Positions 10,698-59,236 of a DNA stretch of 64,000 nucleotides are shown here, one piece after another (position 1 is the stretch's first letter; each line of letters starts with the position of its first letter). The stretch lies in assembly GCA_036867785.1 (NCBI GenBank), contig CP145421.1, positions 496,001 to 560,000 on the forward strand, in the 5' to 3' direction. The translations under genes were made by a program, and so were the position numbers. The notes beneath the pieces were generated by a model. It was not told the origin of the DNA and ran no database searches. It saw only the letters and a list, made by a program, of their open reading frames with translations. Source of the DNA: Plasmodiophora brassicae. Its lineage: Eukaryota.

Positions 10698-12471
10698 TCA
10701 AAGCGGCTGCGATGGTTGCTGTTCCCTTTGCAGCATGCTCGTCAGCGTCTTGTCAGTAATACTGATGCCCTGGATGGCTTGGAAGAGAAGGCGCTCGTCG
10801 ATCGTCTTCGGGATATGGTTCAGGAAGTGCAACGACTGCTCGAACGTGGACTGGAGTAGTGCTAACTCGTACAGTTTAAGGACGCCGAGTGCGGCCCGGA
10901 ACAGGAAGGCTTGGCCCTCCACCAGGAAGCAGTCCCAGATCCGGCAGGCAATGTCGAGGGGAAACGACCGGCTGAAGATCGTCAGGATCCAGTCGTACCT
11001 GCCGAGGGCGCTTAGACGCGAGCCGGACGTCACTGGAACCCGCACGCCCCCTACAGGTACATGTCGGGCGTGAGATTCATGGAGCAGAACCTGTCGAACA
11101 CCTTCGGGACATGCTTCTGCATAAGCTTGTCGAACACGGTCAGGTGCGATCGCCCGCTTCGGAAGTCCCGAAACAGTGTGAAGTAGAGCTCGCTGTTGAG
11201 GAGGTTGGCCAGCGCAACAAACGCGTTGAATTCGTCGTCGAGGTTGAGCAGCAGCATTGCAGCAATGTACGACATGCCTGCAGGGCCGCTCGCTTCAGGC
11301 TCGGCGAAAGGAGCGGGGGGGCGCCCGATGTCGCTCGTACCTTGGATGTATCCGACGTCTGGTCGGAAGGAGACGTACGTCTTGAGGATGTTGACTAGGG
11401 GAGCGCTCATGGGGCCGTCGCCGTGGAAGAACTGGGTAACGGCACATCAGACCACAGCCCAGGCACGCTCGGGAACGCTCCCACTTGAAGCTCCGGGAAC
11501 GTCCTGGGAACGTCGACCTCGATCAACGCGATCGATTCTTCGCGGCTGCATGCGTCGGATGCCGACGGGGACGTGGCTCGCGACGACAGAATCTTGTACA
11601 AATCTGTTGGCCGCCCCCGGAATAGGTTAGACGCGTGGGGAAGCAGTACGCCGAACGACTACCTCGAGTGATCTTGAGCTCGTTCCCAATGATGGCGACC
11701 CAGGCTTCTCCCCGGCAGGCGCTAGGGATGCCCCTCCAGCACATGTTCTTCAGGCGGCGCCTGCTGGGAACCTCTCTACAGGCACGCGGGCGCTTAGTCG
11801 ATTTCCAAACCCGGGTGGGTCGGCCACGGGACCGACATCCGGTTCTGCCAGCTGTGCAGCAGCATGCACCAAGCGGCTCGGTCGTCGGCCATCTGCGTCT
11901 CGCGCTGCTCGCCCGTGACATCATCGGAACCTGCCGCCCTTTGTCACCATTTAGCAATTCCGGCCCAGGGGTGTCCCCACCGTGTATCATCGCGGCCGCC
12001 GAAGGCGTTGCCCAGGTGTCCACCAGGCCTGCAAGACCGGGGTATTGAACACCCTGAGGGGGGCAGACAGACAAGGTGCCAGGCCGGAACGAACCTTGAA
12101 GGAACGCCTTGCCGCGCTTCTTCAGCTTGGCGACCTGGTCGACGACATTGGCGGGTTCCGATTTCGACTCGTCTTCAAACGAACGCTGCGATACCGGGGA
12201 CAGGTCTACGTCGGCGGGCGCCCTGTGCGCCCGTGACTGTCCAGACGATGGGGAAGCGTCCGCAGACGGGGGCGTTTGCTGCGATCGGATCCCCAATGCA
12301 CCAACCGGGGAGGAAAGCTCTGCAACGGGCTCCTTCTCGGTGTCCTCCTCTTTGCCCTTCCCGTTGGGCGATTGCAATTCGTGTGCGCCCACCCACTCGC
12401 TGTGTGGCCGTCAGTCGAATGGCCGACGGGGGCGGACGCGCCTATACCGACTTGATCGCATCCTTGCCCAT
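10698..12471 (-). CDS. TBC-domain Rab GTPase-activating protein (TBC1D12/14-like), multi-exon
   Basis: WRGIPSACRGEAW, IEVDVPRTFP (Arg finger), RPDVGYIQG|MSYIAAMLLLN (Gln finger), DWILTIFSRSFPLDIACRIWDCFL. Confidence 0.9.
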
Positions 12472-12827
12472 CGTCGCCGCCAGGGCGCCCTGAAGCTTAC
12501 GATGCCCCGCAGCGGCATCGCCGTCACCGGAAAAGTCGCCCGACATCGATCGGGCGCCGCGCCCGCCCCCCGCCGACCAGCAGCGATCCCGTCACTGACC
12601 GCCTATCGACTATCGTACGCTCTCTGCCGCCAGAGGAGGGCTGCTGCACCCGTCGCTGGTGGAGGGGGACCACCAACCCGATCCAGCGATATCTATTCCA
12701 GACTCGCTGTCTGAGTGCCACGCCTGCGAATGCGAACTGAATACGTCGGCCAGACGATCACAACAGGTGGGCGGGACGGCGCCCTCCCTCCCCCGAGACA
12801 CGCGCGACAATGATGTGTGTGTGTGCT

Positions 12828-14095
12828 TCAGTTCGTCCAGTGGCAGACCTTCGGCGCCGCGTCGACGTAGGTGACGTCGCCGGGGCGTGTCGGGACGGCA
12901 CGGTGCGGCGGGACGGCGACGTCGTCGTCGTCGTCGTGGGCCGCCAGGTGCGATCGGTCTCGAGCCGGGCCGGCCGGCGGTTTGCGCAGCGGGACGTTGC
13001 CTTCGAAGTCGGCGCGACGGCCGACGCCGCCTTTGGTCGGCGCACGGTGCCGCCGGGCGTCGTCGTCGTCGTCGTCGTTGACGGCGGCGGCGTTCCTGGC
13101 GAACCCGCTCGGCGATGTCGCCGCCCGGGCGGACGCGCTGATGGCCAGCGGGGGCTGGCGGCGGGGCGGCGGCGGCCTGAAATCCGACGCCGCCGTCGAG
13201 AGGGTCGTCGGCGGGATCGCCCCGGGCGCTGCGACGGCCGGCGCCGTGCACGACTTCGTGAAGCCGCTCGTCTGCGGCGGCCCGCCTGCGGACGCAACCA
13301 GCGATCAGCGCGCGCGCGCGCGTCCAACGACCATCGCCCGCGCGGCGCTTACTGGTCGGCATCGGCCACGCTGGCGGCACGGCCGCGTCCGGGACGGGCG
13401 CCCGGAAACGATCCTCGAACTCGGACACGGGCGCGACGTCGTCGTCGGTGACAGGGTCGTCGCCCGCGCGCTGATCGTTGTTGCGCGTGTACCCGTTTCG
13501 TGCGGTGCTGTGCGGGCCGACCTTCCGGCCTGTCGGCGGCGTCGGGGCGCTCCTCTGTGGCGGCCGGTACGCGGCGGCCGACTCCGACAGCGCCGGCGTG
13601 GGGATGTCGGGCTGTGCCGCCAACGCCCGCCCCAGGTCAGTCGCCGGGTATCACGCGCGTCCCAGACAGCGGGCGTTCGGCGCTTACCACGAAGTCGAAC
13701 GCGTTCATGCGCGCGAACGAGTACGGCTGCTTGCGCTGGCAGACGTCCGCCTCGGTGACGTGGCCGGCGTTGCCGAGCGGGATGCGCTGGTAGCTGGCCT
13801 TGTACAACGTCGTATGGTCCACTGGGCCGTCGCCGGCGGCGGCGACACGCGTCGTGTTTCGGGAGAAACCTGTCGGGCGACGCGCGACCGGCATGCATGT
13901 CATCCAGGGGACATTGGGCCGCCCAGCGTGCGCACGCGCGCGCGCACCTGTCTCGTTCGTCATGGCATCCGGGTGCCCGTTGCGCCCCCGGTACCGGAAG
14001 CTCGTGGCCGTCGTCGTACAGTAGAAGTCGAACACGTTGTCGGAGGCGCGAGGCGCCGCCGCCGACTGCTGCCGGGTGGACGGAGCGGCGCTCAT
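12828..14095 (-). CDS. SAXO4/PPP1R32-like ciliary microtubule inner protein, multi-exon
   Basis: N-terminal DNVFDFYCTTTATSF and recurring [ST]G[FY]x[RK]N-like motifs (PTGFSRN, NGYTRNN, SGFTKS, SGFARN). The spliced frame ends VCHWTN-TGA at 12828. Confidence 0.55.
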
Positions 14096-48902: not shown

Positions 48903-49498
48903 CGCCTTCGCACTCCGTACAGCAAATGACTGCTGGCCTTGTGCACTTTGGTGATGATGGTGTCTTCACTCTTCAGAAGACGTGAAGTTTTCTGGAAGAA
49001 CGCCTTTCCGCGGCGAGCAGGAGTCGACGACGTTGTCGCGCTGTCTTCCATTTTATTGCCATCATCAAATCCGTTCCAGATCTGTCCAAATCTGCTACGG
49101 GTTTAAAGGTAATCCATATCTTGCAACGAGTGGGGTGCAGTTTCTCGGTAATTATCTGCAGATTTACGGCCATATATGGATATGGATCACCGGTGGAGAT
49201 GCTCTTAAATGCTGAGCAGCTCTATAGCTAGACGACGTCGACATATTGGCCGTCGATTGAGAAGACCTGCTGCAGGAAACAGGGCGCTCGGGTATGTGTT
49301 CGGACCGGGTCGACAGTGGCATGGCCGAAAACGAAGCATTGCAATGGACGACGTATCGCGATCTGGGAGATGACAGAAGGTCGAGCCGCTGCTCAGATAT
49401 TTGCTATAAACCTGCCGGGCGCAATCTCGATCGAGATAGTAGGTAAGCCGCGAGCCTGCCGTTGGATATTTCATACGGGAATCGTAGCCGCTGCTGCG

Positions 49499-50728
49499 AT
49501 GACGCTGCTGCATGTGTGGACGCTCGCATTCTGGGTTGTATACGAGGGCGCCGACGCGCTGTCCTTCTCGAACGTCTACATCGGCAACCATGCCGAGCTG
49601 TTCGACTACACCCAGGACCGGCAAGTGATTCGCCCGATGTCGTTCACGACGGTGAAACAGTTCCTGGATCAATTGGGCTGGGTGCACTCCAAGGACGGCT
49701 GGTACCCTGGCTACCTATCCAGTGCGAACGTCGTCGATCCGGAGGGCCGTACGAACACCAGCGTTCTCCAAGTGACGTATGGGCCCGGGTACTTTGGCCA
49801 GTCGACGGCACTGGGCATCGCTGGATGGTACAGCGCCCCGGGGTACCCGTACTGGAACGTCACTCGCATGACCCTGGAATATGAAGTCTTCTTCCCGACC
49901 GGATTCATCTTCGTCAAGGAAGGAAAACTGCCTGGCATCTGGGGCGCTGATGGCATCTCGTCTACGACATTCGATTGCGGAGGCGGGTCGGTGAATCGCA
50001 GCAACCCGAATTGCTTCTCGACGCGACTGATGTGGCGAAACGCAACGGGGGCGGGTGCCGCCTACATTTACGCTGTCAACAACCAGGCGTACTGCCCGTC
50101 TCCTACGATATGTCCCAACAGTCAGGTCCTGACCTGCTGCGACCCGTCCTACGGCGACATTGTCGGCAGGAACTTCGCGTTGCTCACGGGGCAGTGGCAG
50201 AAGCTGGCGGTCATGGTCGACCTGCAAGACGGGCTTACACAAGTGATCCACAACGGTAAGGTCGTCATCAGCTATATCGTCAAATACGGGTCGATTCGCC
50301 TGTTCAACGGCATCAAGTTCGATACGTTCTTCGGCGGGGGCAGTTCCAGTTTCAGCAGCCCGACAACGCAGTACGCCTACTTTCGTAACTTCAAACTGTT
50401 CGTCGCCAGCACTTCACGATCGTACGGCCAAGTCAAGCGCGCGACATCGAAAACAGCGAACACACCCGCAAAGACATCCAGGAAGATCTTGGCGTCGGCA
50501 CAGACAACGAAGAAGACCCGTCCAGTGGCACCAGTGGCAAGTACCAGGAAGCGTTCCCATGTGGTTCGGAGCTCTAAGCGCACTGCGCCCGCCCAGATGC
50601 CCATGACCTCGAAGACGGAATCACCCAATGTACTGGCAGTCGGGTCTAACAGCGGTCGCCGGAACTTCCCGTCGACAACGAGCTACGTCCTCGTCCTGCT
50701 CGGCCTTGCCGTTATCTACTTGTTTTGA
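49499..50728 (+). CDS. Polysaccharide lyase family 14-like enzyme, copy B (short linker)
   Basis: Protein identical to copy A from IGNHAE to PTTQY; lacks most of the Lys-rich repeats. Confidence 0.82.
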   Translation: MTLLHVWTLAFWVVYEGADALSFSNVYIGNHAELFDYTQDRQVIRPMSFTTVKQFLDQLGWVHSKDGWYPGYLSSANVVDPEGRTNTSVLQVTYGPGYFGQSTALGIAGWYSAPGYPYWNVTRMTLEYEVFFPTGFIFVKEGKLPGIWGADGISSTTFDCGGGSVNRSNPNCFSTRLMWRNATGAGAAYIYAVNNQAYCPSPTICPNSQVLTCCDPSYGDIVGRNFALLTGQWQKLAVMVDLQDGLTQVIHNGKVVISYIVKYGSIRLFNGIKFDTFFGGGSSSFSSPTTQYAYFRNFKLFVASTSRSYGQVKRATSKTANTPAKTSRKILASAQTTKKTRPVAPVASTRKRSHVVRSSKRTAPAQMPMTSKTESPNVLAVGSNSGRRNFPSTTSYVLVLLGLAVIYLF

Positions 50729-51064: not shown

Positions 51065-52624
51065 ATGGTGATGACGTCGTGCCTGGCTGTCGTGGGGTTG
51101 GCCGTCGGCCTCGTCACGGTCGGCGATTCCTCTGAGCTGTCGAGGGCAATCGAACCGGTCGGCCAGGATATGTTCACCGGGCGGCGGTGGCGCGGCTGAT
51201 CCGTGGTGTCGTAGGTGGATCACCTGGCAGATTGGTCGTCGCTGGCGAAATATGTCGTTCTGCTGGGCGATTCGCCGGCGGGAAAGACGTCGGCAAGCGA
51301 TGTTGATGGTGCCGCTACGACATACACAACGATGACGCCTCTTGGTCAGCGTGTTGTTTGCACAATACCGGCGAACTCGAAAACCGAATACGCTGATGAG
51401 GCCCAGGACGAGAGCGCCGGAGAGCTGTCGCTGGAGAATAGGCGATCCAAGGCACTGGCGAAGTTTAAGAAACAGGTGAAAAGAAAATGTGTACAGAAAC
51501 CCGCCGGCTTCTGGACCTTCGAGATATGCCCTTTCGTGTCTGTGCGGCAAATCCATTACGAGGACACAAAGGAGGTGCTGTCGTTCTCGCTCGGCACATT
51601 CGAGAGTGACAGATGGGAAGACGATGGCACCTACGCACAAGAGTATGCTGGGGGGACGGATGGACGGCATGCGAAGGTTATAATGGCGTGCCCGACTGGC
51701 GAGCGCAAGAAGACACCTGGCGTCCTGACATTCCTGAAAGCCGAGGAGCCTCATCCGTTTACGGTAAGTAAATCGACGCCGACGCCACGTTGGAACGCTT
51801 ACCTATGTGTAGTACGTTGCATATGTTGAGGTCGGCTTCGTGTGCACGCCCTCCGCCCCTGTCAACACTCCTTTCCATTTGCTTGGCCCTCTCGCAACTA
51901 AGTGCATATTCCTGGTTGGTTGGTGCGCTCTTCATCACAACCGCGACTGACTATTCTAGAGTAGAATAAGGGGTGGTGGTCGTACGAGTACTGCCATCTG
52001 AAGTTTGTTCGCCAGTTTCATGCCGAGAAAGTCAGGATTAGCGGCGCGGAAGATGACCTGATCATTCGGTTTGAAACCGTAACAACGGCGGCTTTCACGC
52101 TTGGGTCTTGGGAAGGGAGCACAGACGAGGAGTCTATTAATGCAAAGACTTCTCTTGTGGCATTCGATAACAGCCCTTCATCTTCGTACTTCATGCAGGT
52201 TGGGCTTGTTGGACTCTGCCAGTGTCACTAATGGAATAACCGCATTGTATAGACGTACCGGGATGGAACTGTCTGCGACCTAACAGGAACGCCGCGTGAG
52301 ACCGAGATCCGGTTCATTTGCAACAAGGATTTGGACAGTTCTCGTTTCGCCAGCATTAAAGAGACCACGACCTGTCACTACCTTGTTGAGATCGAAACGC
52401 CCCTGATATGCTCTCATCCCAAGTTCATTGTTAAGGCCCCAGGTTCGTACCGTCCTGCAAAACTGCTGCCACATGAACCCTTAAGGTTATGTGCAGTTGT
52501 TCACGAAATCATATGTCGCACGAAGCAAGACGAAGCGGAAAAATTAACTACAGCAGTCGTACCAGTTATTGCAAAAGACGAATCCAGCAAACACGAAACC
52601 ACTAAACAGAAAGACGAACTGTGA
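51065..52624 (+). CDS. ER lectin of the OS-9/ERLEC1 family with two MRH domains, multi-exon
   Basis: Signal peptide; GFWTFEICPFVSVRQIH and GWWSYEYCHLKFVRQFH; GTVCDLTGTPRETEIRFIC..ETTTCHY..ETPLIC; C-terminal KDEL. Confidence 0.88.
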
Positions 52625-52712
52625 CGCATAACTTCGCGTTGACATTTAAAGCTGTATTAGGGACTTGACTGGGATCAGAACCATCATGGCAGACAACAGC
52701 GCCAGACTGGAT

Positions 52713-53165
52713 CTACACCCGGCTGGGGTACATGAAGACGCGAACGTACTTTCCGAGCGCCTGAGGCGGCAAGTTCGTGCGGAAGCGGCAGCGAACAAGC
52801 CCGTTGTTGCCATGAGCGCGCTGGACCTTCCCCCAGATGACACGGTAACGGGAGGTCTTGGGGCCTGCGGCACCCTTGGTGATGGTCTTCTGCGGGCGCT
52901 TCGCCTTGTAAATGTAGGCGACGCGCTTGCCCAGGTAGAAGTCAGTGTCAGTCTTGTCGTTGACACCCTCAATCTTGATCAGCGCCTTGCTGTGGATCAG
53001 CGTGTGTGCGCGACGCTTGAATGAGACGAAGACACCACGGGTGTACAATCTGGACACAGTATTAGACCGAATTCATCGAAACTTTCCAGATGCGCTAGAC
53101 CTAGTCGGCTGCGCCGTCTCAGAGACGGCTGACGCGTGGTTACTCTGGGCGGCAACCTCAGTCAT
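52713..53165 (-). CDS. RPL35A: 60S ribosomal protein L35a (eL33), 2 exons
   Basis: RLYTRG...[43 protein letters not shown]...[10 protein letters not shown]. Confidence 0.96.
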
Positions 53166-53372
53166 GATGACGGACGGCAAGGCTGGATAGACCACACAAC
53201 CAGTTTGAGAACGGGAGACGCGTGATCTCGCGGACTCCGTGCGGACTGCGCGCCAACATTAGGGCACCGTCCTATATGTGTGTGGTGCTTAGCCTCCCAG
53301 CGGAAATTCGTCAGCACTCGTATTCTACTCTACATAGCACCGCGTATGTTACACCACGTACCAGTAGAATAT

Positions 53373-55466
53373 TTACCAGTAGTCTCCGCAAGAGCATTTG
53401 CCGTTGACGAAGCGGTGGTGACGAGTCAGGTCGCGCAGGAATATCTCCCTGTTTAGGACGGAAGATGCGTGCTTGACGGCGTCGTGGCAATCAGGACACA
53501 TCCGCGCAAGCTTGGCCATCCGGATTGGATCGTTGCAGTCCGGCTGCACCTTCATGACGTAGGCAATCGATATCTTCTCGCTGTGCAGAGACAGAGATCT
53601 TGCTTCGTCCTCGTAATGCGCGAGCGGTTTCATGATGAGCGACCCATCTGGTTTGTACCCGTCCTCCGCCAGCCGTTGCATCAGCTGAGTGTGGTTGTCA
53701 CGAAGTCCAGGGTCAGCATGGTACTGGATATCAGCGGTGACGAAGTTGATACTCTTGCTGGATTGCTGCAGAGTCGTGCGGCCGGTCTCCTTTAGCAGGC
53801 CTCGCGTCCGCATGCTTTCTCGGAGCCTGTTGACATCGTCGCTGCGGCCAGCTCGTGCGTACAGACTCATCATCAGGGCAAACGCGGACAGGTATTGAGG
53901 AACCGTGATGTCCGGCAACTGTAGAACCTTGGCAAACACACGCTCGGCGCGCTCCAAGTCGCTGTGTTCGCGGCAGCCAGTGAGTACCGCTAGCCATATG
54001 CGGATGTCGGGGCTTTCGATCTCAGACGCAAGCTTCTCGCACGTGTTGAGGTCGCCGGCTCGTCCATGGAGATCGACCAGGTACTCAACGTGCTGAACGT
54101 CGCGAGGAATCTTCCAGGTCTCATCGAATTCGGTCAGGAATTCTCTAGCGCGGCCGATATCGCCAACATGAGCGCAGGCCACCAGAAGACCGGACAGTGT
54201 CCACTTCGTCGGCGTCAGACCAGCGGCCTTGAGCTGGTTGAACACGTCAATCGCATTCTGAAGCGCACCTTGGTTGCCGTAAGCGCCAATCATCGCGTTG
54301 AACGTGACAAGGTCAGGTGTTGACGCTTCGCAATGGGAACGGAACAGTTCCTCGGCGCGGTACAAATGCCCAGCATTGGCGTAAGCTGACACCAAAGTGC
54401 TCAGAACGACGTCATCCAGCATGAGCTCCTTGCCGACGCAATACTGATGAACAGTTTGCAAAGGCGTGATCTCGGAAACGCGACCAGCGGCACTGATCAG
54501 GCTGCACAGAACGGGGATCTCGATGTCGTATCCTCTGGGCACCATCGAGTTGAATGCCTGCATGGCCTGCGATACGCGGTCGACCTTCGCCAGGGCAGAC
54601 AGGATCATGTGGAAGATGAGCGGGGTCGGCGGCACCTTCAGCGCGTCCATCAGCATGATCGAGTTCAGCGCAGACTGCCAGCGCTCTTGCTGTAGCAAGG
54701 CGCGAACAACGTTGGCGAACATGTCCATGTCCCTGAAGTGTGATACACAGTTCGTCCGGATCAGGCTCAGGATTCGCTCAGCGATGTCGGCGCCCTGCTT
54801 GCTGTTCGCCTCGACACACATCAACGCAAAGTTCCGCAGCAACTTCTGGCTGACCTTGACATGATGGTTCGACGAGTGTGCGACCAGCACAAGCGCATCA
54901 TTGGCACGCCCCGCTGCCCTGGCCAACTGCGACATGGCCATGATACCGTTGTGGGTCCGAACAGGCGGCCCGATCTTCATGTACATGTCGAATGCCTCCT
55001 GGAACATGGGCGGGTCCGTTTTCGTGCAGGCGTCCACGAACGCGCAGAACATATTGTCGTTGATGGGAACAGTCCTCTCGATGGCGTCCTTGAGCACTTG
55101 GATGCCCTTCGTGGGCAGGCACCGCTTGCAGAATTGCATCATCGGCAGGAACGTACGCGCATCGGCACGAAGCCCCGACTCGAGCAGTCGTTGATAAACG
55201 CTCCAAACCCGTTCAGCATCATTGTCGAGCTTGAAGATCTGCGCGGCCAACTGGACCGTCGGCCTCTTCATGAAATCCTCCGACATTTCACTGAGGGACA
55301 ACGTCGGTGCCATGTCCGGGGTCACCACCGCCGGGAACTTCTCGCTCTCGGGCACCGCCGATGACGTGAACCGCTGCCCGCGTACGAGTCGCTGAACGCC
55401 CGACGCCGCATCGACACGCCATACGCGCGAACAACGAACAGCGGATCGGGCAGTGGCGCGCATCAT
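53373..55466 (-). CDS. PLS-class pentatricopeptide repeat protein with E1/E2 and DYW cytidine-deaminase-like domain, intronless
   Basis: PPR motifs (LVTFNAMIGAYGNQG..., LLVACAHVG, LVDLHGRAG), E-domain IWLAVLTGCREH, then HSEK...CPDCH...HHRF..GKCSCGDYW-stop. Arg/Ser/Ala-rich leader. Confidence 0.95.
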   Translation of the reverse strand: MMRATARSAVRCSRVWRVDAASGVQRLVRGQRFTSSAVPESEKFPAVVTPDMAPTLSLSEMSEDFMKRPTVQLAAQIFKLDNDAERVWSVYQRLLESGLRADARTFLPMMQFCKRCLPTKGIQVLKDAIERTVPINDNMFCAFVDACTKTDPPMFQEAFDMYMKIGPPVRTHNGIMAMSQLARAAGRANDALVLVAHSSNHHVKVSQKLLRNFALMCVEANSKQGADIAERILSLIRTNCVSHFRDMDMFANVVRALLQQERWQSALNSIMLMDALKVPPTPLIFHMILSALAKVDRVSQAMQAFNSMVPRGYDIEIPVLCSLISAAGRVSEITPLQTVHQYCVGKELMLDDVVLSTLVSAYANAGHLYRAEELFRSHCEASTPDLVTFNAMIGAYGNQGALQNAIDVFNQLKAAGLTPTKWTLSGLLVACAHVGDIGRAREFLTEFDETWKIPRDVQHVEYLVDLHGRAGDLNTCEKLASEIESPDIRIWLAVLTGCREHSDLERAERVFAKVLQLPDITVPQYLSAFALMMSLYARAGRSDDVNRLRESMRTRGLLKETGRTTLQQSSKSINFVTADIQYHADPGLRDNHTQLMQRLAEDGYKPDGSLIMKPLAHYEDEARSLSLHSEKISIAYVMKVQPDCNDPIRMAKLARMCPDCHDAVKHASSVLNREIFLRDLTRHHRFVNGKCSCGDYW

Positions 55467-55712
55467 GCCGGCACGTCAGCTGCGCTGCAATTCGCGGTAT
55501 CCGCCGGGAAGACCGACGCGACGCTCTTCGGACTCGGGGGACCACCGTGGCAGGGTGCAGCTCTCGGCCAGCCGCATTTCCGGACGCATGTGCCAACTGG
55601 CTGCACGCCGAATCGGGAAGTGTGTGTATTCCCCCGTCTGACAGTGGCAGACTCTGCGCCACTTACCGAATGTCCGTCTCGCGACTCGACGGTAACGCGG
55701 AACTGCACATCG

Positions 55713-57101
55713 ATGCAGCGCACGCGGTCGGGGGGTGCCGGGTGTGGTCATTTTTCCGGAACGGGCGGGGCGGGCCGCCGTATGTTGGCGACAGCAGCGT
55801 CGGCGATAGCGGGCGGCGCGTGCGTCGTCGGCGGGTGCTGGACGCACTGGCGGTGCCTGGGTCGTCCGCCGGCGTCGTGGAAGCTGGCGCGGGCCGCGTT
55901 CGGTGGGTCGTTGCGTCCGCCGCATGAGGACGGGTGCGCGCCAGCAGCGCGGCATCTGGCGTTCGCCAGCGGTGCTGCCTTATCCGGATTCGCGCTGATG
56001 GAATCAGCGTTTGGTCACGTTGGGCTGAATGTCGTTGATGGGTTGCATCCTCTGCTTCCCACAATTGTCGGCAGTGGTTTGCTGGTAGGCATCACAAGAA
56101 GGGCTGGCTAGGCTGATCGACCACTGATACATTCACACCAGGCGGGGATTGGTGCTCAAATCGCACGAGGCAGCATGCTGACGCACATAATGCAGTGTGG
56201 GTTTCAGTCGTCGGGCAGACGCGAATCGGCTGTCAGTGCTATCACGGCGGGTGCTGCCGCTGTCGGAACATCGCTGGTCGGCCATCTGAACCCGGACCTG
56301 TTCTTCGTCGATCCCAGCGCCGCTAGGCACAGCATGGACGCTGCCATAATGTTTGATGGATCATCTATGGTCGCGTTTACCGCAGCCGGGCTACTGTTCA
56401 TTGCTCTCAGGTTGGTTCGAAACGTCACAGAAGCATGAAGAAAACGAACCGCGGTATAGGCAGCATGGTTTCACGAAATCGAACGTTATTCCAGTTCTGG
56501 GTGCATTCTCGTCAGGTGCCCTCGTTGGTCTCGGATGTGGACTCATGGGCCTGTAATCAACAGAATTGTCAAGTTCTCTACCGTGGATCCTGATAGTGGT
56601 TCTGGTCTAGAACTAACGCTCAGAACATCGCTGCGTTAACGAGCCTGTCTTCCGCAGCCGATCCCTCGGTTCTACTGGTACTTGTGTAACTGAAGTGTAC
56701 TGCGTTCTGTGCTCAATCTCGTTTAGGGCGTTGCGACGGCTGTTGCTGGCAACGTCTTTATTATGCCCCGCATCAAGCGGTTGCCAGACGATTCGTCCGC
56801 GTCTGTGGTGGTGGACTCGCACGCTGCAAGCGTGAACCAGTCGATCATAGGTTCAACGCTATTCGGCATCGGTGGGTTTGTGTCTTTGCGCATGCACTCG
56901 TTCTCACCTAAGCGCGTATCAGGGATGGGACTGACAGGGACAGTCCCGATTGCTGCATTAGTAAGCCTTAGCACTGGCTCGACAAGCGTATGGGTATGGA
57001 CAGCCTCGATGCTAGCGGGGACTGCCTCAGTCCAACTTGCCAAGCATTTGCGTTATAAGCGTCACAGTTCAACGCTATTGGAAGAATCGCCGGCAGCATA
57101 G
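55713..57101 (+). CDS. Multi-pass membrane protein, TauE/SafE (sulfite exporter)-like, multi-exon; start uncertain
   Basis: Several Gly-rich hydrophobic exons (AAAVGTSL, GALVGLGCGLMGL, SMLAGTASVQLAKHL). Family call is tentative. Confidence 0.5.
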
Positions 57102-57391: not shown

Positions 57392-59236
57392 ATGTCACCT
57401 ACTGTGCTATTACTGATCTGTTGCATCGCATCATCTGCGGGGCGGCTAGTCGTCGTTGACCTGAGCGTCGATGTTGGGAGTGTCGCGCCCGACGGTGTTC
57501 CTGTTGACGCGCTGCTGGTGAACGGTCAATTCCCAGGGCCCGAGATCCACGCGAACGCTGGCGATCGCCTGGAGATCACCGTTCGCAACCAGCAACTCAA
57601 CGGCAGCATCTCGATCCACTTACAGTAAGCGACGCGGCCCGTCGAACGATCTGATCCTGCTTACACCGCGTAGCGGTATCGCACAGCATGGGACCCCGTT
57701 CTATGATGGTGCGGCTGGCGTTAATCAGGCCCCGATTCCTCCTTTGTCCCAGTACACACTCCGTGTCCAGGTTCGCGTCAGGGGTATCACATCCGTTCGA
57801 GCAATAGCTTCTGAGATCGCTCCACAGCTGGGGGAACGCGAATCCGGAACGTTCTTCTACCACGCCCACAGTGGCCTGGACCAGAGCGTGGTCGGCGCTC
57901 TCATTGTCCATAATGACGAACGCGATCACGCCGTGATGAACTACGACGACGAGCGAGTCATTCTGCTGTCAGACTGGTGGCATGCATCGATGGAGTCGCT
58001 GATCGACGGTCTTATGGGAACACCTTTCAAATGGATCGGCGATGCACAGTCCATCCTGACGAACGGCCGTTCTCCTCCGTCGTCCTGTTCTGATTCCACT
58101 GTGGCGAATGCCGCCTTGTGCCCTATGGACGCGTTCACCGCCGTCACGGTTGACCCGGACAGGACGTATCGGTTGCGTATTATCAACGCTGGCGGCCTCG
58201 GCTACTTCACGTTCTCCATCGTTGGCCATCCGATGACGATCGTTGAGGTCGAGGGCACCATTACGGAGCCTGTCGTCGTGGACCATCTGGAGATCAACTC
58301 TGGCCAGCGATACTCTGTACTGATCACAACGAACCAGACGTCCGCATCCAACTTCTGGATGAAGACTGGAGGTTATCCATCCTTGTCTAGTGCTGTAGCA
58401 TGAGCTGTTAGACTGACCGGACCATCACAGTGCGTTATCGACCGTCGGGCCCTACAAATGGGTACGCCCTGCTTCGGTACTCTTCTAAGTCAACAAACGT
58501 TCCTCCTGCATCAGAACTTCCAGTCCTGCCAAAGGAAAAGGTCGGGTGGGTTCTTGATCAGTTGCATCCGAAGTTCGACGAGGATCGCTGCCCGACGGGC
58601 GACCCTGACACGACGCTTGTACTAGTCGGGCGACAGAAATCCTTATCTCGTGGACGTGTCATCTGGGCAATCAATGATATCGCATTGGAAATGGAGGACA
58701 TTCCAGGGGGCTCCATGCTGAAACATGCATATGACGGCACTTTGGACACGCTTCCCGAGAACCAGCGCCCACTGGCTGCCGTTCCCGTCGGGTCTGTAGT
58801 CGATGTCGTTCTAGTGAATACGGCGGCGCTGAACGGCATCTGCGAAGAGCACCCATGGCACCTTCATTCGACGTCGTTCTGGGTGCTTGCACGAGGCAAC
58901 GGGTCGTTCGATCCGGAGGCAGCTGCCCGGGTCCAGAGGCATTCCCCAATTCGCAGGGACACGGAGACGCTGTACCCATTCTCCGGGGCGTACTTCCAGC
59001 ACCAGCTGTCGCCAGGGCAGCATTGCGGATGGACACTGCTAAGGTTTGTGGCTGACAATGCCGGTGTCTGGCCGTTTCACTGCCATGTCATATCTCATAT
59101 GGTAAGCCCTGAGCGCGCCTACGCAATTGAGTGATTCGCTAAGGTTCCGCAGATCATGGGCATGGCTGTAGCGATCAATGTTGTACCAAGTAACGGATAC
59201 GGGACTCTAGACCCACTGCCAAGCGACTTCCCGTAA
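57392..59236 (+). CDS. Secreted multicopper oxidase (ascorbate oxidase/laccase-like), multi-exon
   Basis: Signal peptide; NGQFPGPEI; all four Cu motifs (IHLH|G, FYHAH, HPWHLH, WPFHCHVISHM|IMGM); LLSDWWH. Confidence 0.93.

What the first reader, a model, noticed from the sequence alone, without database searches (positions are those of the whole stretch)
53373..55466. Plant-type PPR-E1-E2-DYW protein in a protist genome: candidate mitochondrial C-to-U RNA editing system
Seen: a single-exon 697 aa ORF with a mitochondrial-like leader, a PPR array ending in the P2-L2-S2-E1-E2 pattern, intact Zn/catalytic motifs (HSEK, CPDC) and a terminal CSCGDYW. The PG box is altered (KETGRTTL versus the plant KxPGxSWI), and there are no introns although most neighbours are intron-rich. 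Known: DYW-PPR proteins are the site-specific C-to-U editing deaminases of land-plant organelles and occur only patchily elsewhere (e.g. Naegleria, Physarum). Inference: this lineage may edit mitochondrial RNA with a horizontally acquired or retroposed factor. If the host is a plant parasite, acquisition from, or action on, the host is also conceivable.
Basis: partly seen in the sequence, partly recalled or inferred. Interest (0 to 1): 0.88.

Follow-up and report, generated by a model that had tools for sequence, protein, structure and literature searches.

The report
Clubroot-parasite PPR-DYW RNA-editing factor gene
This is a real, transcribed, intron-free gene for a plant-style RNA-editing enzyme (a PPR-DYW protein), one of at least 27 related genes in what is almost certainly the clubroot parasite Plasmodiophora brassicae, which suggests that this parasite edits its mitochondrial RNA although no paper I could search reports it.

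Summary
A 697-aa ORF lies at 53373-55466 on the minus strand. It has a full-length DYW deaminase domain with HSE, CPDCH and CSCGDYW intact, E1/E2 motifs and one P2-L2-S2 triplet. The PG box is degenerate (TGRTTL). Spliced transcript contigs from four studies cover the CDS without a joint, while nine 49-68 nt introns lie in the flanking 2.8 kb.

The gene is not a singleton. Together with 26 proteins that their sources name as Plasmodiophora brassicae, it forms a family of at least 27 paralogues. In the tree these form one clade (bootstrap 93), outside the sampled land plants (split 100/99). Grouping the family with Brassicales is rejected (p-AU 1e-23), so a recent transfer from the host and plant contamination are both excluded. 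GC3 matches the neighbouring genes.

All 27 share a collinear N-terminal module of eight degenerate PPR-like repeats that the sampled plant proteins lack. Ten of the 27 lack the catalytic glutamate; this gene keeps it.

The most likely function is site-specific mitochondrial C-to-U editing, inferred from homology and not shown. Databases already label the family "DYW domain-containing". A 2026 survey counts 31 DYW domains in Rhizaria without naming species in its text. I found no paper on editing in phytomyxeans.

It is a new member of a known kind, of moderate interest.

The parts
53373..55466 (-). Complete single-exon CDS of the PPR-E-DYW protein (697 aa plus TAA stop)
   Evidence: transcript contigs contiguous over 53361-55560
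55314..55466 (-). aa 1-51: Arg-rich, acid-poor leader, disordered in the model; putative mitochondrial presequence (inferred)
   Evidence: 8 R/K and 2 D/E in the first 40 aa; pLDDT below 50 for aa 1-51
54417..55289 (-). aa 60-350: family-specific N-terminal module, a cap helix plus eight degenerate PPR-like hairpins (r1-r8)
   Evidence: Collinear in 27 of 27 P. brassicae paralogues, and in P0140, P0017 and P0018. Below Pfam's PPR cut-off (23.6 against 30 bits). PPR-like by structure (Atlas TM 0.73)
54312..54413 (-). aa 352-385: S1-like PPR motif (34 aa; 5th residue S, last residue D)
   Evidence: alignment to 9kfx
54006..54311 (-). aa 386-487: P2-L2-S2 triplet (35, 36 and 31 aa)
   Evidence: Pfam PPR_2 aa 384-433; alignment to 9kfx; helices in the model
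53793..54005 (-). aa 488-558: E1 and E2 motifs; E1 carries the family's 4-aa insertion (PDITVPQY region)
   Evidence: Pfam E_motif
53376..53792 (-). aa 559-697: DYW cytidine-deaminase domain, starting with a degenerate PG box (KETGRTTLQ)
   Evidence: Pfam 9.3e-24; PDB 7o4e 3.5e-15 and 7w86 2.8e-17
53577..53585 (-). Codons for H628-S629-E630, the HxE zinc-ligand and catalytic-glutamate signature
   Evidence: H628 invariant in 96 sequences
53487..53498 (-). Codons for C657-P-D-C660 (the CxxC zinc ligands)
55467..55613 (-). 5' UTR; transcript contigs end at 55560, 55579 and 55613
   Evidence: table 8
53293..53360 (-). 68-nt minus-strand intron that starts 12 nt after the DYW stop. It is spliced in contigs of 3 of 4 runs that run on into the eL33 gene
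   Evidence: tables 5 and 8

Best explanation
The gene encodes a nuclear-encoded, mitochondrion-targeted PPR-E1-E2-DYW protein of a plasmodiophorid, almost certainly Plasmodiophora brassicae. The helical repeat tract would bind one or a few mitochondrial transcripts just upstream of a target cytidine. The C-terminal DYW domain, a zinc-dependent cytidine deaminase with HxE and CxxC, would convert that C to U, as in land-plant organelles and Naegleria mitochondria. It is one of at least 27 paralogues, which implies a multi-site editing system. Shown here: the gene, its domains and motifs, its transcription, its lack of introns, the family and its place in the tree. Inferred: mitochondrial location, RNA binding, deaminase activity and the existence of edited sites.
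For: Domains: the DYW domain matches Pfam over the full model at 9.3e-24, with E_motif and PPR hits. The protein matches the synthetic PPR-DYW 9kfx at 4.9e-86, aligned over aa 338-697, and the OTP86 and DYW1 DYW domains.

Structure: the AlphaFold model built on a 96-row alignment has pLDDT 91.7 and pTM 0.86. It shows 12 PPR-like hairpins, then E1, E2 and an alpha/beta DYW domain. Its best fold match is 9kfx_A, a PPR-DYW bound to its target RNA (E 3.3e-25, TM 0.57/0.64).

Catalytic residues: H628, H661, H684, C691 and C693 are invariant in 96 sequences, and C657 and C660 are at least 90% conserved. E630 is present.

Transcription: spliced contigs from 3 runs of 3 studies include the whole CDS with no differing letter.

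Family: at least 27 P. brassicae paralogues form one clade. Most full-length members have Arg-rich, acid-poor N-termini.

Native gene: GC3 is 0.73, against 0.72 and 0.61-0.65 in neighbouring genes.

Precedent: related Endomyxa (paradinids) have mitochondrial C-to-U editing together with PPR-DYW transcripts (PMC11946409, abstract and passages seen).

Background knowledge, not a call: plasmodiophorids have no plastid, so the mitochondrion is the only organellar target.
Against: No editing site, localisation or activity is shown. The PG box, which I recall as important for plant editing, is TG and lacks the SW that follows PG in most of the sampled plant proteins; only 10 of 27 paralogues keep PG. 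Only 3 of 12 repeats carry plant-type code residues, so sequence-specific RNA reading by the known code is unproven. Ten of 27 paralogues lack the catalytic glutamate, so part of the family cannot be deaminases. The P. brassicae mitogenome paper I read in passages (PMC6823432) reports 54 introns and odd splice sites but no editing, and its only use of the phrase is in a reference title. A role in intron splicing or RNA stabilisation is therefore a live alternative. No dedicated targeting predictor was run.
Confidence: 0.68

Rival explanations
1. It is a mitochondrial RNA-processing factor that does not edit. It would act in group II intron splicing, transcript end formation or stabilisation, with the DYW domain retained for binding or as a vestige.
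For: The P. brassicae mitogenome is reported as strikingly intron-rich, with 54 introns (PMC6823432, passages seen). Ten of 27 paralogues lack the catalytic glutamate and 17 of 27 lack PG. The N-terminal eight repeats are collinear across all paralogues and do not carry code-type residues. I recall that some plant and moss DYW or E-class PPRs act in splicing.
Against: This particular paralogue keeps every zinc ligand and the catalytic glutamate. The DYW domain matches the Pfam model end to end. Seventeen of 27 paralogues keep HxE, which suggests selection for catalysis.
Confidence: 0.17
2. It binds RNA as a specificity factor, but its own deaminase is impaired by the degenerate PG box, so editing at its site depends on another, active DYW paralogue acting in trans.
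For: The PG box is TGRTTL against PGxSW in most of the sampled plant proteins. The family mixes intact and glutamate-less members, as do plant E+ and DYW partner systems (recalled).
Against: PG is missing from 17 of 27 paralogues, including many with intact HSE and CxxC. The relaxed box therefore looks like a family trait and not a lesion. The two beta strands that follow the box are modelled with confidence (E563-567 and E572-576; pLDDT 92-97 in that stretch).
Confidence: 0.1
3. It is a parasite effector delivered into the host cell, where it edits or binds host organellar RNA.
For: The parasite lives inside plant cells, and the domain type is the one plants use. A 2026 study links clubroot to changed expression of host PPR and editing genes (PMC13247141, passages seen; that study concerns host genes).
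Against: The N-terminus has no hydrophobic signal-peptide core and looks like a presequence. The family is far from plant DYW proteins, at 29-36% identity and on the other side of a 100/99 split. A family of 27 with conserved architecture fits a housekeeping organellar role.
Confidence: 0.03
4. It is contaminating plant DNA, or a very recent transfer from the Brassica host.
For: The domain architecture is plant-like, and samples of an obligate root parasite contain host DNA.
Against: One transcript contig joins the gene to the flanking eL33 gene, and in run X15 also to the gene upstream, with 49-68 nt introns. The stretch is held in 20 runs of 9 studies. GC3 equals that of the neighbours. The best plant identity is about 35%. 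The AU test rejects a clade with Brassicales, with delta lnL 141.5 and p 9.7e-24.
Confidence: 0.01

Closest known systems
Land-plant PLS-class DYW-type PPR editing factors (solved examples: OTP86 DYW domain 7o4e, DYW1 7w86, synthetic PPR-DYW with RNA 9kfx)
   Same: The C-terminal order is the same: S-like, P2, L2, S2, E1, E2, DYW. HxE, CxxCH, H..CxC and the DYW tail are present. The gene is intron-free and has an organelle-type leader.
   Different: Identity is only 29-36% in E1-E2-DYW. The PG box is degenerate and E1 carries a 4-aa insertion. There are no upstream P1-L1-S1 triplets; instead there is a conserved module of eight degenerate 32-40 aa repeats, which the sampled plant proteins match only through short, weak repeat hits. 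In the tree it lies on the other side of a 100/99 split from all 26 sampled plant sequences.
The other 26 Plasmodiophora brassicae 'DYW domain-containing proteins' (for example PBRA_006614, PBRA_007680, PBRA_004219, PBRA_008312)
   Same: They share the architecture and the collinear N-module (29-39% identity). E1-E2-DYW is 38-45% identical for the eight paralogues checked. They form one clade.
   Different: This member is among the shortest, with no extra repeats between the N-module and the last triplet. It keeps the catalytic glutamate, which 10 of 27 have lost, but lacks the PG that 10 of 27 keep.
Naegleria gruberi DYW-type PPR proteins, with demonstrated mitochondrial C-to-U editing (Knoop and Ruedinger 2010; Ruedinger et al. 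2011; seen only as citations in PMC11946409 and PMC13386178)
   Same: A non-plant protist with a DYW-PPR family and plant-type mitochondrial editing. This is the functional precedent for the reading given here.
   Different: No Naegleria sequence was in my tree, so the relationship is untested.
Paradinid (Ascetosporea, Endomyxa, Rhizaria) PPR-DYW transcripts with massive mitochondrial C-to-U and A-to-I editing (PMC11946409)
   Same: It is the closest organismal relative with shown C-to-U editing, and DYW proteins were detected there.
   Different: That paper groups paradinid DYW domains with fungal ones through a shared 2-residue deletion. Against plants, the P. brassicae family shows a 1-residue insertion before HSE and no deletion that I could see. 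No paradinid sequence was available, so a common origin is untested. The paper does not mention plasmodiophorids: a search within it for 'plasmodiophor' and 'phytomyx' gave 0 occurrences.
Balamuthia mandrillaris PPR-DYW protein (P0010)
   Same: It is the third-best hit to the E1-E2-DYW query (E 9.9e-52).
   Different: It has a plant-type PG box (PGRSWI) and no E1 insertion. It falls on the land-plant side of the tree and not with this family.

Membership tests
DYW-type PPR RNA-editing factor (plant type) | DYW cytidine-deaminase domain with the HxE...CxxC zinc and catalytic signature | tested here: met
   Pfam PF14432 at 9.3e-24 over model positions 1-93 of 93. H628, S629, E630 and C657-x-x-C660 are present. 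PDB 7o4e matches at 3.5e-15 over aa 569-697.
DYW-type PPR RNA-editing factor (plant type) | C-terminal H...CxC cluster and DYW tail (the second zinc site; that role is recalled) | tested here: met
   H661, H684, C691 and C693 are invariant in 96 sequences. The tail is CSCGDYW.
DYW-type PPR RNA-editing factor (plant type) | PG box (PGxSW) at the start of the DYW domain | tested here: not met
   The sequence is KETGRTTLQ: the G is kept, P is replaced by T, and there is no SW. All 26 of 26 sampled plant proteins have PG, against 10 of 27 paralogues.
DYW-type PPR RNA-editing factor (plant type) | E1 and E2 motifs between the PPR tract and DYW | tested here: met
   Pfam E_motif at 28.6 bits against a cut-off of 27.3. 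The region aligns column by column to E1 and E2 of 9kfx. It forms two helical hairpins in the model. E1 has a 4-aa insertion.
DYW-type PPR RNA-editing factor (plant type) | PLS-class array of alternating P, L and S motifs along the tract | tested here: not met
   Only the last triplet (35, 36 and 31 aa) and one S1-like motif fit. The eight upstream repeats are 32-40 aa, fall below Pfam's PPR cut-off and are not arranged as triplets.
DYW-type PPR RNA-editing factor (plant type) | PPR code residues (5th and last) that specify the bases upstream of the edited C | tested here: inconclusive
   Three of 12 repeats have code-type pairs (S/D, N/T, S/D) and the rest do not. The repeat register was taken from predicted helix starts.
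DYW-type PPR RNA-editing factor (plant type) | Targeting to an organelle | not testable with these tools
   The leader is Arg-rich, acid-poor and disordered. No predictor or localisation data were available.
DYW-type PPR RNA-editing factor (plant type) | Site-specific C-to-U conversion in organellar RNA | not testable with these tools
Plasmodiophora brassicae DYW family (defined here) | Collinear N-terminal module of about 290 aa, the E1 4-aa insertion, and placement in the clade | tested here: met
   The N-module matches 26 of the 26 other paralogues at 1e-34 to 1e-60. The insertion was seen in the 17 paralogues aligned. The clade has support 93/86.
Paradinid and fungal PPR-DYW clade (PMC11946409) | Shared 2-residue deletion at DYW alignment positions 43-44 | tested here: inconclusive
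   I saw no deletion relative to plants. However, no paradinid or fungal sequence was available, and the paper's numbering could not be mapped.

The most novel reading that the evidence does not exclude
Plasmodiophorid mitochondria run a plant-like C-to-U editing system served by a lineage-specific family of at least 27 PPR-DYW genes. The family is built on a conserved N-terminal PPR-like module, not on PLS triplets. About a third of its members are catalytically dead and would depend on active paralogues in trans, which would be an independent parallel to the plant editosome. The family is old and not derived from the host.
Probability: 0.4. Interest if true: 0.7.

Novelty: new member of a known kind. 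Interest (0 to 1): 0.5.

Why it matters
If the inference holds, Phytomyxea would join the few non-plant lineages with plant-type mitochondrial C-to-U editing, and with one of the larger protist DYW families. It would also matter for annotating the 114-kb, intron-rich P. brassicae mitogenome, whose authors reported reading-frame problems (PMC6823432). In addition, it offers a natural PPR-DYW design that lacks PLS triplets and a canonical PG box, which is of interest to people who engineer RNA editors. The test is cheap, because public RNA and DNA data of the parasite already exist. The limit on novelty is that databases already label these proteins as DYW-domain proteins, and a 2026 survey counts 31 DYW domains in Rhizaria.

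Tried and rejected
- Own genome: none is held for this window, so paralogues were counted from protein databases only, and their gene structures could not be checked.
- Word-index searches with the single protein: one was swamped by generic PPR hits and the other found only 4 proteins. The exhaustive search and a profile search were needed.
- Single-sequence AlphaFold gave a poor model (pLDDT 51.9) and was replaced by the alignment-based model.
- No RNA holder is listed on record for the stretch. The runs I laid are only guessed to be RNA, and I rely on their spliced joints.
- Run X20 has no contig with the 53292/53361 joint, and its DYW contig shows no splice, so that run alone does not prove transcription.
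- Editing could not be tested. No mitochondrial DNA was available as a locus, and the one read-laying run was used on the gene.
- Target prediction from the PPR code was abandoned because only 3 of 12 repeats are readable.
- Spongospora and Polymyxa orthologues: none was named among the 30 clusters I looked up or the 120 rows. Word limits and 50% clustering make this no evidence of absence.
- Papers. 'Plasmodiophora' + 'DYW' gave 2 papers, which I took to concern host or crop genes (one checked in passages, the other judged from its title only). 'Plasmodiophora' + 'C-to-U' gave 3 and 'Phytomyxea' + 'RNA editing' gave 6; none appeared, from titles and the passages I read, to report editing in the parasite. 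'Plasmodiophora' + 'pentatricopeptide' + 'mitochondria' gave 14, of which one (PMC8298192, passages) mentions two nitrogen-responsive parasite PPR genes without DYW.
- Knoop 2023 (J Exp Bot) is not held.
- Table S10 of PMC13386178, which may list these very genes, is a supplement and could not be seen.
- Earlier scan notes: none for this genome or sequence.
- Retroposition hallmark: no poly(A) remnant in the 60 nt after the stop. This is uninformative for an old duplicate.
Full report
**Observation.** The window holds an ATG-to-stop ORF of 697 codons at 53373..55466 on the minus strand. The finding gave no strand. An in-frame stop lies three codons upstream of the first ATG, and the ORF ends ...CSCGDYW followed by TAA. 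Pfam finds a DYW_deaminase domain over its whole model (9.3e-24, aa 603-697), an E motif (28.6 bits against a cut-off of 27.3) and PPR repeats (PPR_2 2.9e-22). Among solved structures the best sequence match is a synthetic PPR-DYW protein, 9kfx (4.9e-86). It aligns continuously from aa 338 to 697, through an S1-like motif, P2, L2, S2, E1, E2 and DYW. The DYW domains of OTP86 (7o4e, 3.5e-15) and DYW1 (7w86) also match. HSEK, CPDCH and CSCGDYW are intact. The PG box reads KETGRTTLQ where plant proteins have PGxSW.

**Transcription and gene structure.** The stretch occurs in 20 public runs of 9 studies. I laid four runs from four studies on 52000-57000. Their contigs lack nine short segments of 49-68 nt that have GT..AG ends (CT..AC for minus-strand genes), so they derive from spliced RNA even though the runs are only guessed to be RNA. 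In three runs a single contig contains spliced exons of the downstream gene and the entire DYW CDS. No joint and no differing letter falls between 53361 and 55560. The flanking 2.8 kb holds nine introns, about one per 310 nt. By my own rough Poisson estimate, about seven would be expected in the 2.2-kb DYW transcript, giving P of about 1e-3 for none. The contigs place the 5' end at 55560-55613.

**Which organism, and is the gene native?** No genome is held for the window. The nearest natural relative in the first searches is PBRA_006614 of Plasmodiophora brassicae, which is 40% identical and collinear over 623 residues. An exhaustive search with aa 481-697 gave 2563 hits at E up to 0.001. I looked up 30 of the best 150 by name:

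- 24 are P. brassicae proteins, mostly named 'DYW domain-containing protein'.
- One is from Balamuthia and one from Ananas.

With PBRA_006614, PBRA_008312 and the window's own protein, that makes 27 distinct paralogues. The unnamed P0140 may be a 28th. Two named P. brassicae paralogues lie on a contig of 1,123,131 bp, the same length as the longest contig that carries the window's protein. Only one DYW gene lies in the window itself. GC3 of the gene is 0.73, against 0.72 for the PL14 lyase ORF and 0.61-0.65 for the multicopper oxidase exons nearby. Together with the transcript contigs that bridge to the neighbouring genes, this excludes plant contamination.

**Family features.** I aligned E1-E2-DYW of the paralogues with plant, Balamuthia and metagenomic sequences. 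The 17 paralogues aligned share a 4-residue insertion in E1 and a relaxed PG box whose consensus is PGRT[ST]L. Across the 27 paralogues:

| Feature | Paralogues that keep it |
|---|---|
| H of HxE | 27 of 27 |
| Catalytic E | 17 of 27 |
| CxxC | 25 of 27 |
| C-terminal CxC | 27 of 27 |
| PG | 10 of 27 |
| Final W | 24 of 27 |

All 26 sampled plant sequences keep H, E, CxxC, CxC and PG. The window's protein belongs to the catalytically intact subset but lacks PG.

**The N-terminal module.** Residues 60-350 form a second family hallmark. They match all 26 other paralogues collinearly (E 1e-34 to 1e-60, 29-39% identity), and also P0140 and the metagenomic P0017 and P0018. The sampled plant proteins match only through short, weak repeat hits. 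Pfam does not reach its PPR cut-off there (23.6 against 30 bits). By structure the region is still a PPR-like superhelix (Atlas TM 0.73 to P-class PPR proteins).

**Structure.** A single-sequence model was poor (pLDDT 52). With a 96-row alignment the model reaches pLDDT 91.7 and pTM 0.86. In that model:

- Residues 1-51 are disordered.
- A cap helix is followed by 12 PPR-like hairpins, then E1 and E2.
- The DYW domain is a mixed alpha/beta domain.

Foldseek's best match is 9kfx_A, the synthetic PPR-DYW bound to its target RNA (E 3.3e-25, TM 0.57/0.64 over 637 columns). Taking helix starts as the repeat register, only three of the 12 repeats carry plant-type code pairs: S/D, N/T and S/D. The eight N-module repeats do not. 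The target cannot be predicted with plant rules.

**Origin.** A FastTree of 149 E1-E2-DYW segments put all 26 P. brassicae rows then in the set into one group. I had dropped P0002-P0004, which lack DYW, and a few partial hits. I then ran a careful IQ-TREE on 59 rows of my own choosing: 27 paralogues, 5 metagenomic sequences, Balamuthia and 26 named plants from lycophytes, gymnosperms and angiosperms.

- The paralogues form one clade (bootstrap 93, SH-aLRT 86; found in 94% of 200 bootstrap trees).
- All plants plus Balamuthia lie across a branch of length 0.60 with support 100/99.
- Metagenomic P0017 is sister to the family.
- Forcing the family together with the two Brassicales sequences costs 141.5 log-likelihood units (p-AU 9.7e-24).

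Acquisition from the present host lineage is therefore rejected. Bryophytes, ferns, charophytes and the other protist, fungal and rotifer DYW proteins were not in the tree, and the tree is unrooted. An ancient transfer from an early plant lineage, a shared origin with the paradinid DYW proteins, or vertical descent all remain open.

**Mechanism.** By homology, the protein would enter the mitochondrion, which I know from background to be the only organelle with a genome in plasmodiophorids. It would bind a transcript with its repeat tract and deaminate a cytidine a few bases downstream of the bound stretch. The leader has 8 R/K and 2 D/E in 40 residues and no hydrophobic core. Most full-length paralogues have similar leaders. 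None of these steps is shown.

**Main rival.** The main alternative is a non-editing role in RNA processing. The P. brassicae mitogenome is reported to hold 54 introns (PMC6823432, passages seen), and a third of the family has lost the catalytic glutamate. I put editing at about 0.68 for this paralogue.

**What is known.** DYW-type PPR proteins outside plants are well documented; I saw the citations to Knoop and Ruedinger 2010 and Schallenberg-Ruedinger 2013 in PMC11946409 and PMC13386178. PMC11946409 (abstract and passages) shows C-to-U and A-to-I editing with PPR-DYW transcripts in paradinids. It states that C-to-U editing had never been reported in rhizarians, and it does not mention plasmodiophorids. 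PMC13386178 (passages) counts 31 DYW domains in Rhizaria in a supplementary table that I could not open. Public databases already name the P. brassicae proteins as DYW-domain proteins. My searches found no paper in the held library that discusses them or any editing in Phytomyxea.

**Verdict.** The editing-factor reading is reasonable but unproven. The host-transfer idea is rejected. The real finding is larger than one gene: a family of at least 27 members with its own architecture. It is a new member of a known kind with variant features, of moderate interest, and it can be tested directly with existing data.

Noticed in passing
window 52713-53165 (-), intron 53050-53100; upstream intron 53293-53360: The gene directly downstream on the same strand is ribosomal protein eL33 (Ribosomal_L35Ae, 7.2e-36). 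A 68-nt intron begins 12 nt after the DYW stop codon. In 3 of 4 runs, contigs join the DYW CDS to the eL33 exons, which suggests read-through transcripts or an eL33 start site inside the DYW 3' end. In run X20 the two are separate contigs with depths 194 and 4336.
   Followed up: partly
window 55536-57000 (+): A plus-strand gene with at least five 49-58 nt introns starts at 55536-55685, while DYW transcript contigs end at 55560-55613. The two divergent transcripts therefore abut or overlap head to head. I did not identify its product, and the ORF at 55365-56108 has no Pfam hit.
   Followed up: partly
window 49232-50725 (+): An uninterrupted 498-codon open frame carries a Polysaccharide lyase 14 domain (8.6e-42). 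It is also free of stops over 1.5 kb in this intron-rich genome. It could be a cell-wall-degrading enzyme of the plant parasite and another possible transferred gene.
   Followed up: no
window 57522-59131 (+): A multicopper oxidase gene is split over at least two open frames (Cu-oxidase_3, Cu-oxidase and Cu-oxidase_2 domains).
   Followed up: no
paralogues P0012, P0026, P0027, P0028, P0029, P0040, P0051, P0052, P0059, P0110: Ten of the 27 P. brassicae DYW paralogues have the catalytic glutamate of HxE replaced (by D, T, V, P, C or A) while keeping the zinc ligands. This recalls plant editing factors that need a DYW partner in trans.
   Followed up: partly
proteins P0017, P0018, P0014, P0034, P0129 (metagenomic): Unnamed environmental proteins sit next to the P. 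brassicae family in the tree. P0017 and P0018 share its N-terminal module, so organisms not yet named in the databases carry the same architecture.
   Followed up: partly
window 12001-14000: This is the local GC maximum of the window (0.70, against 0.52-0.65 in the other 2-kb windows).
   Followed up: no
database names of P0019, P0173, P0026, P0191: Some NCBI records call these proteins 'unnamed protein product (mitochondrion)', although the same clusters sit on contigs of 1-2 Mb. This looks like a labelling artefact of one assembly submission.
   Followed up: no
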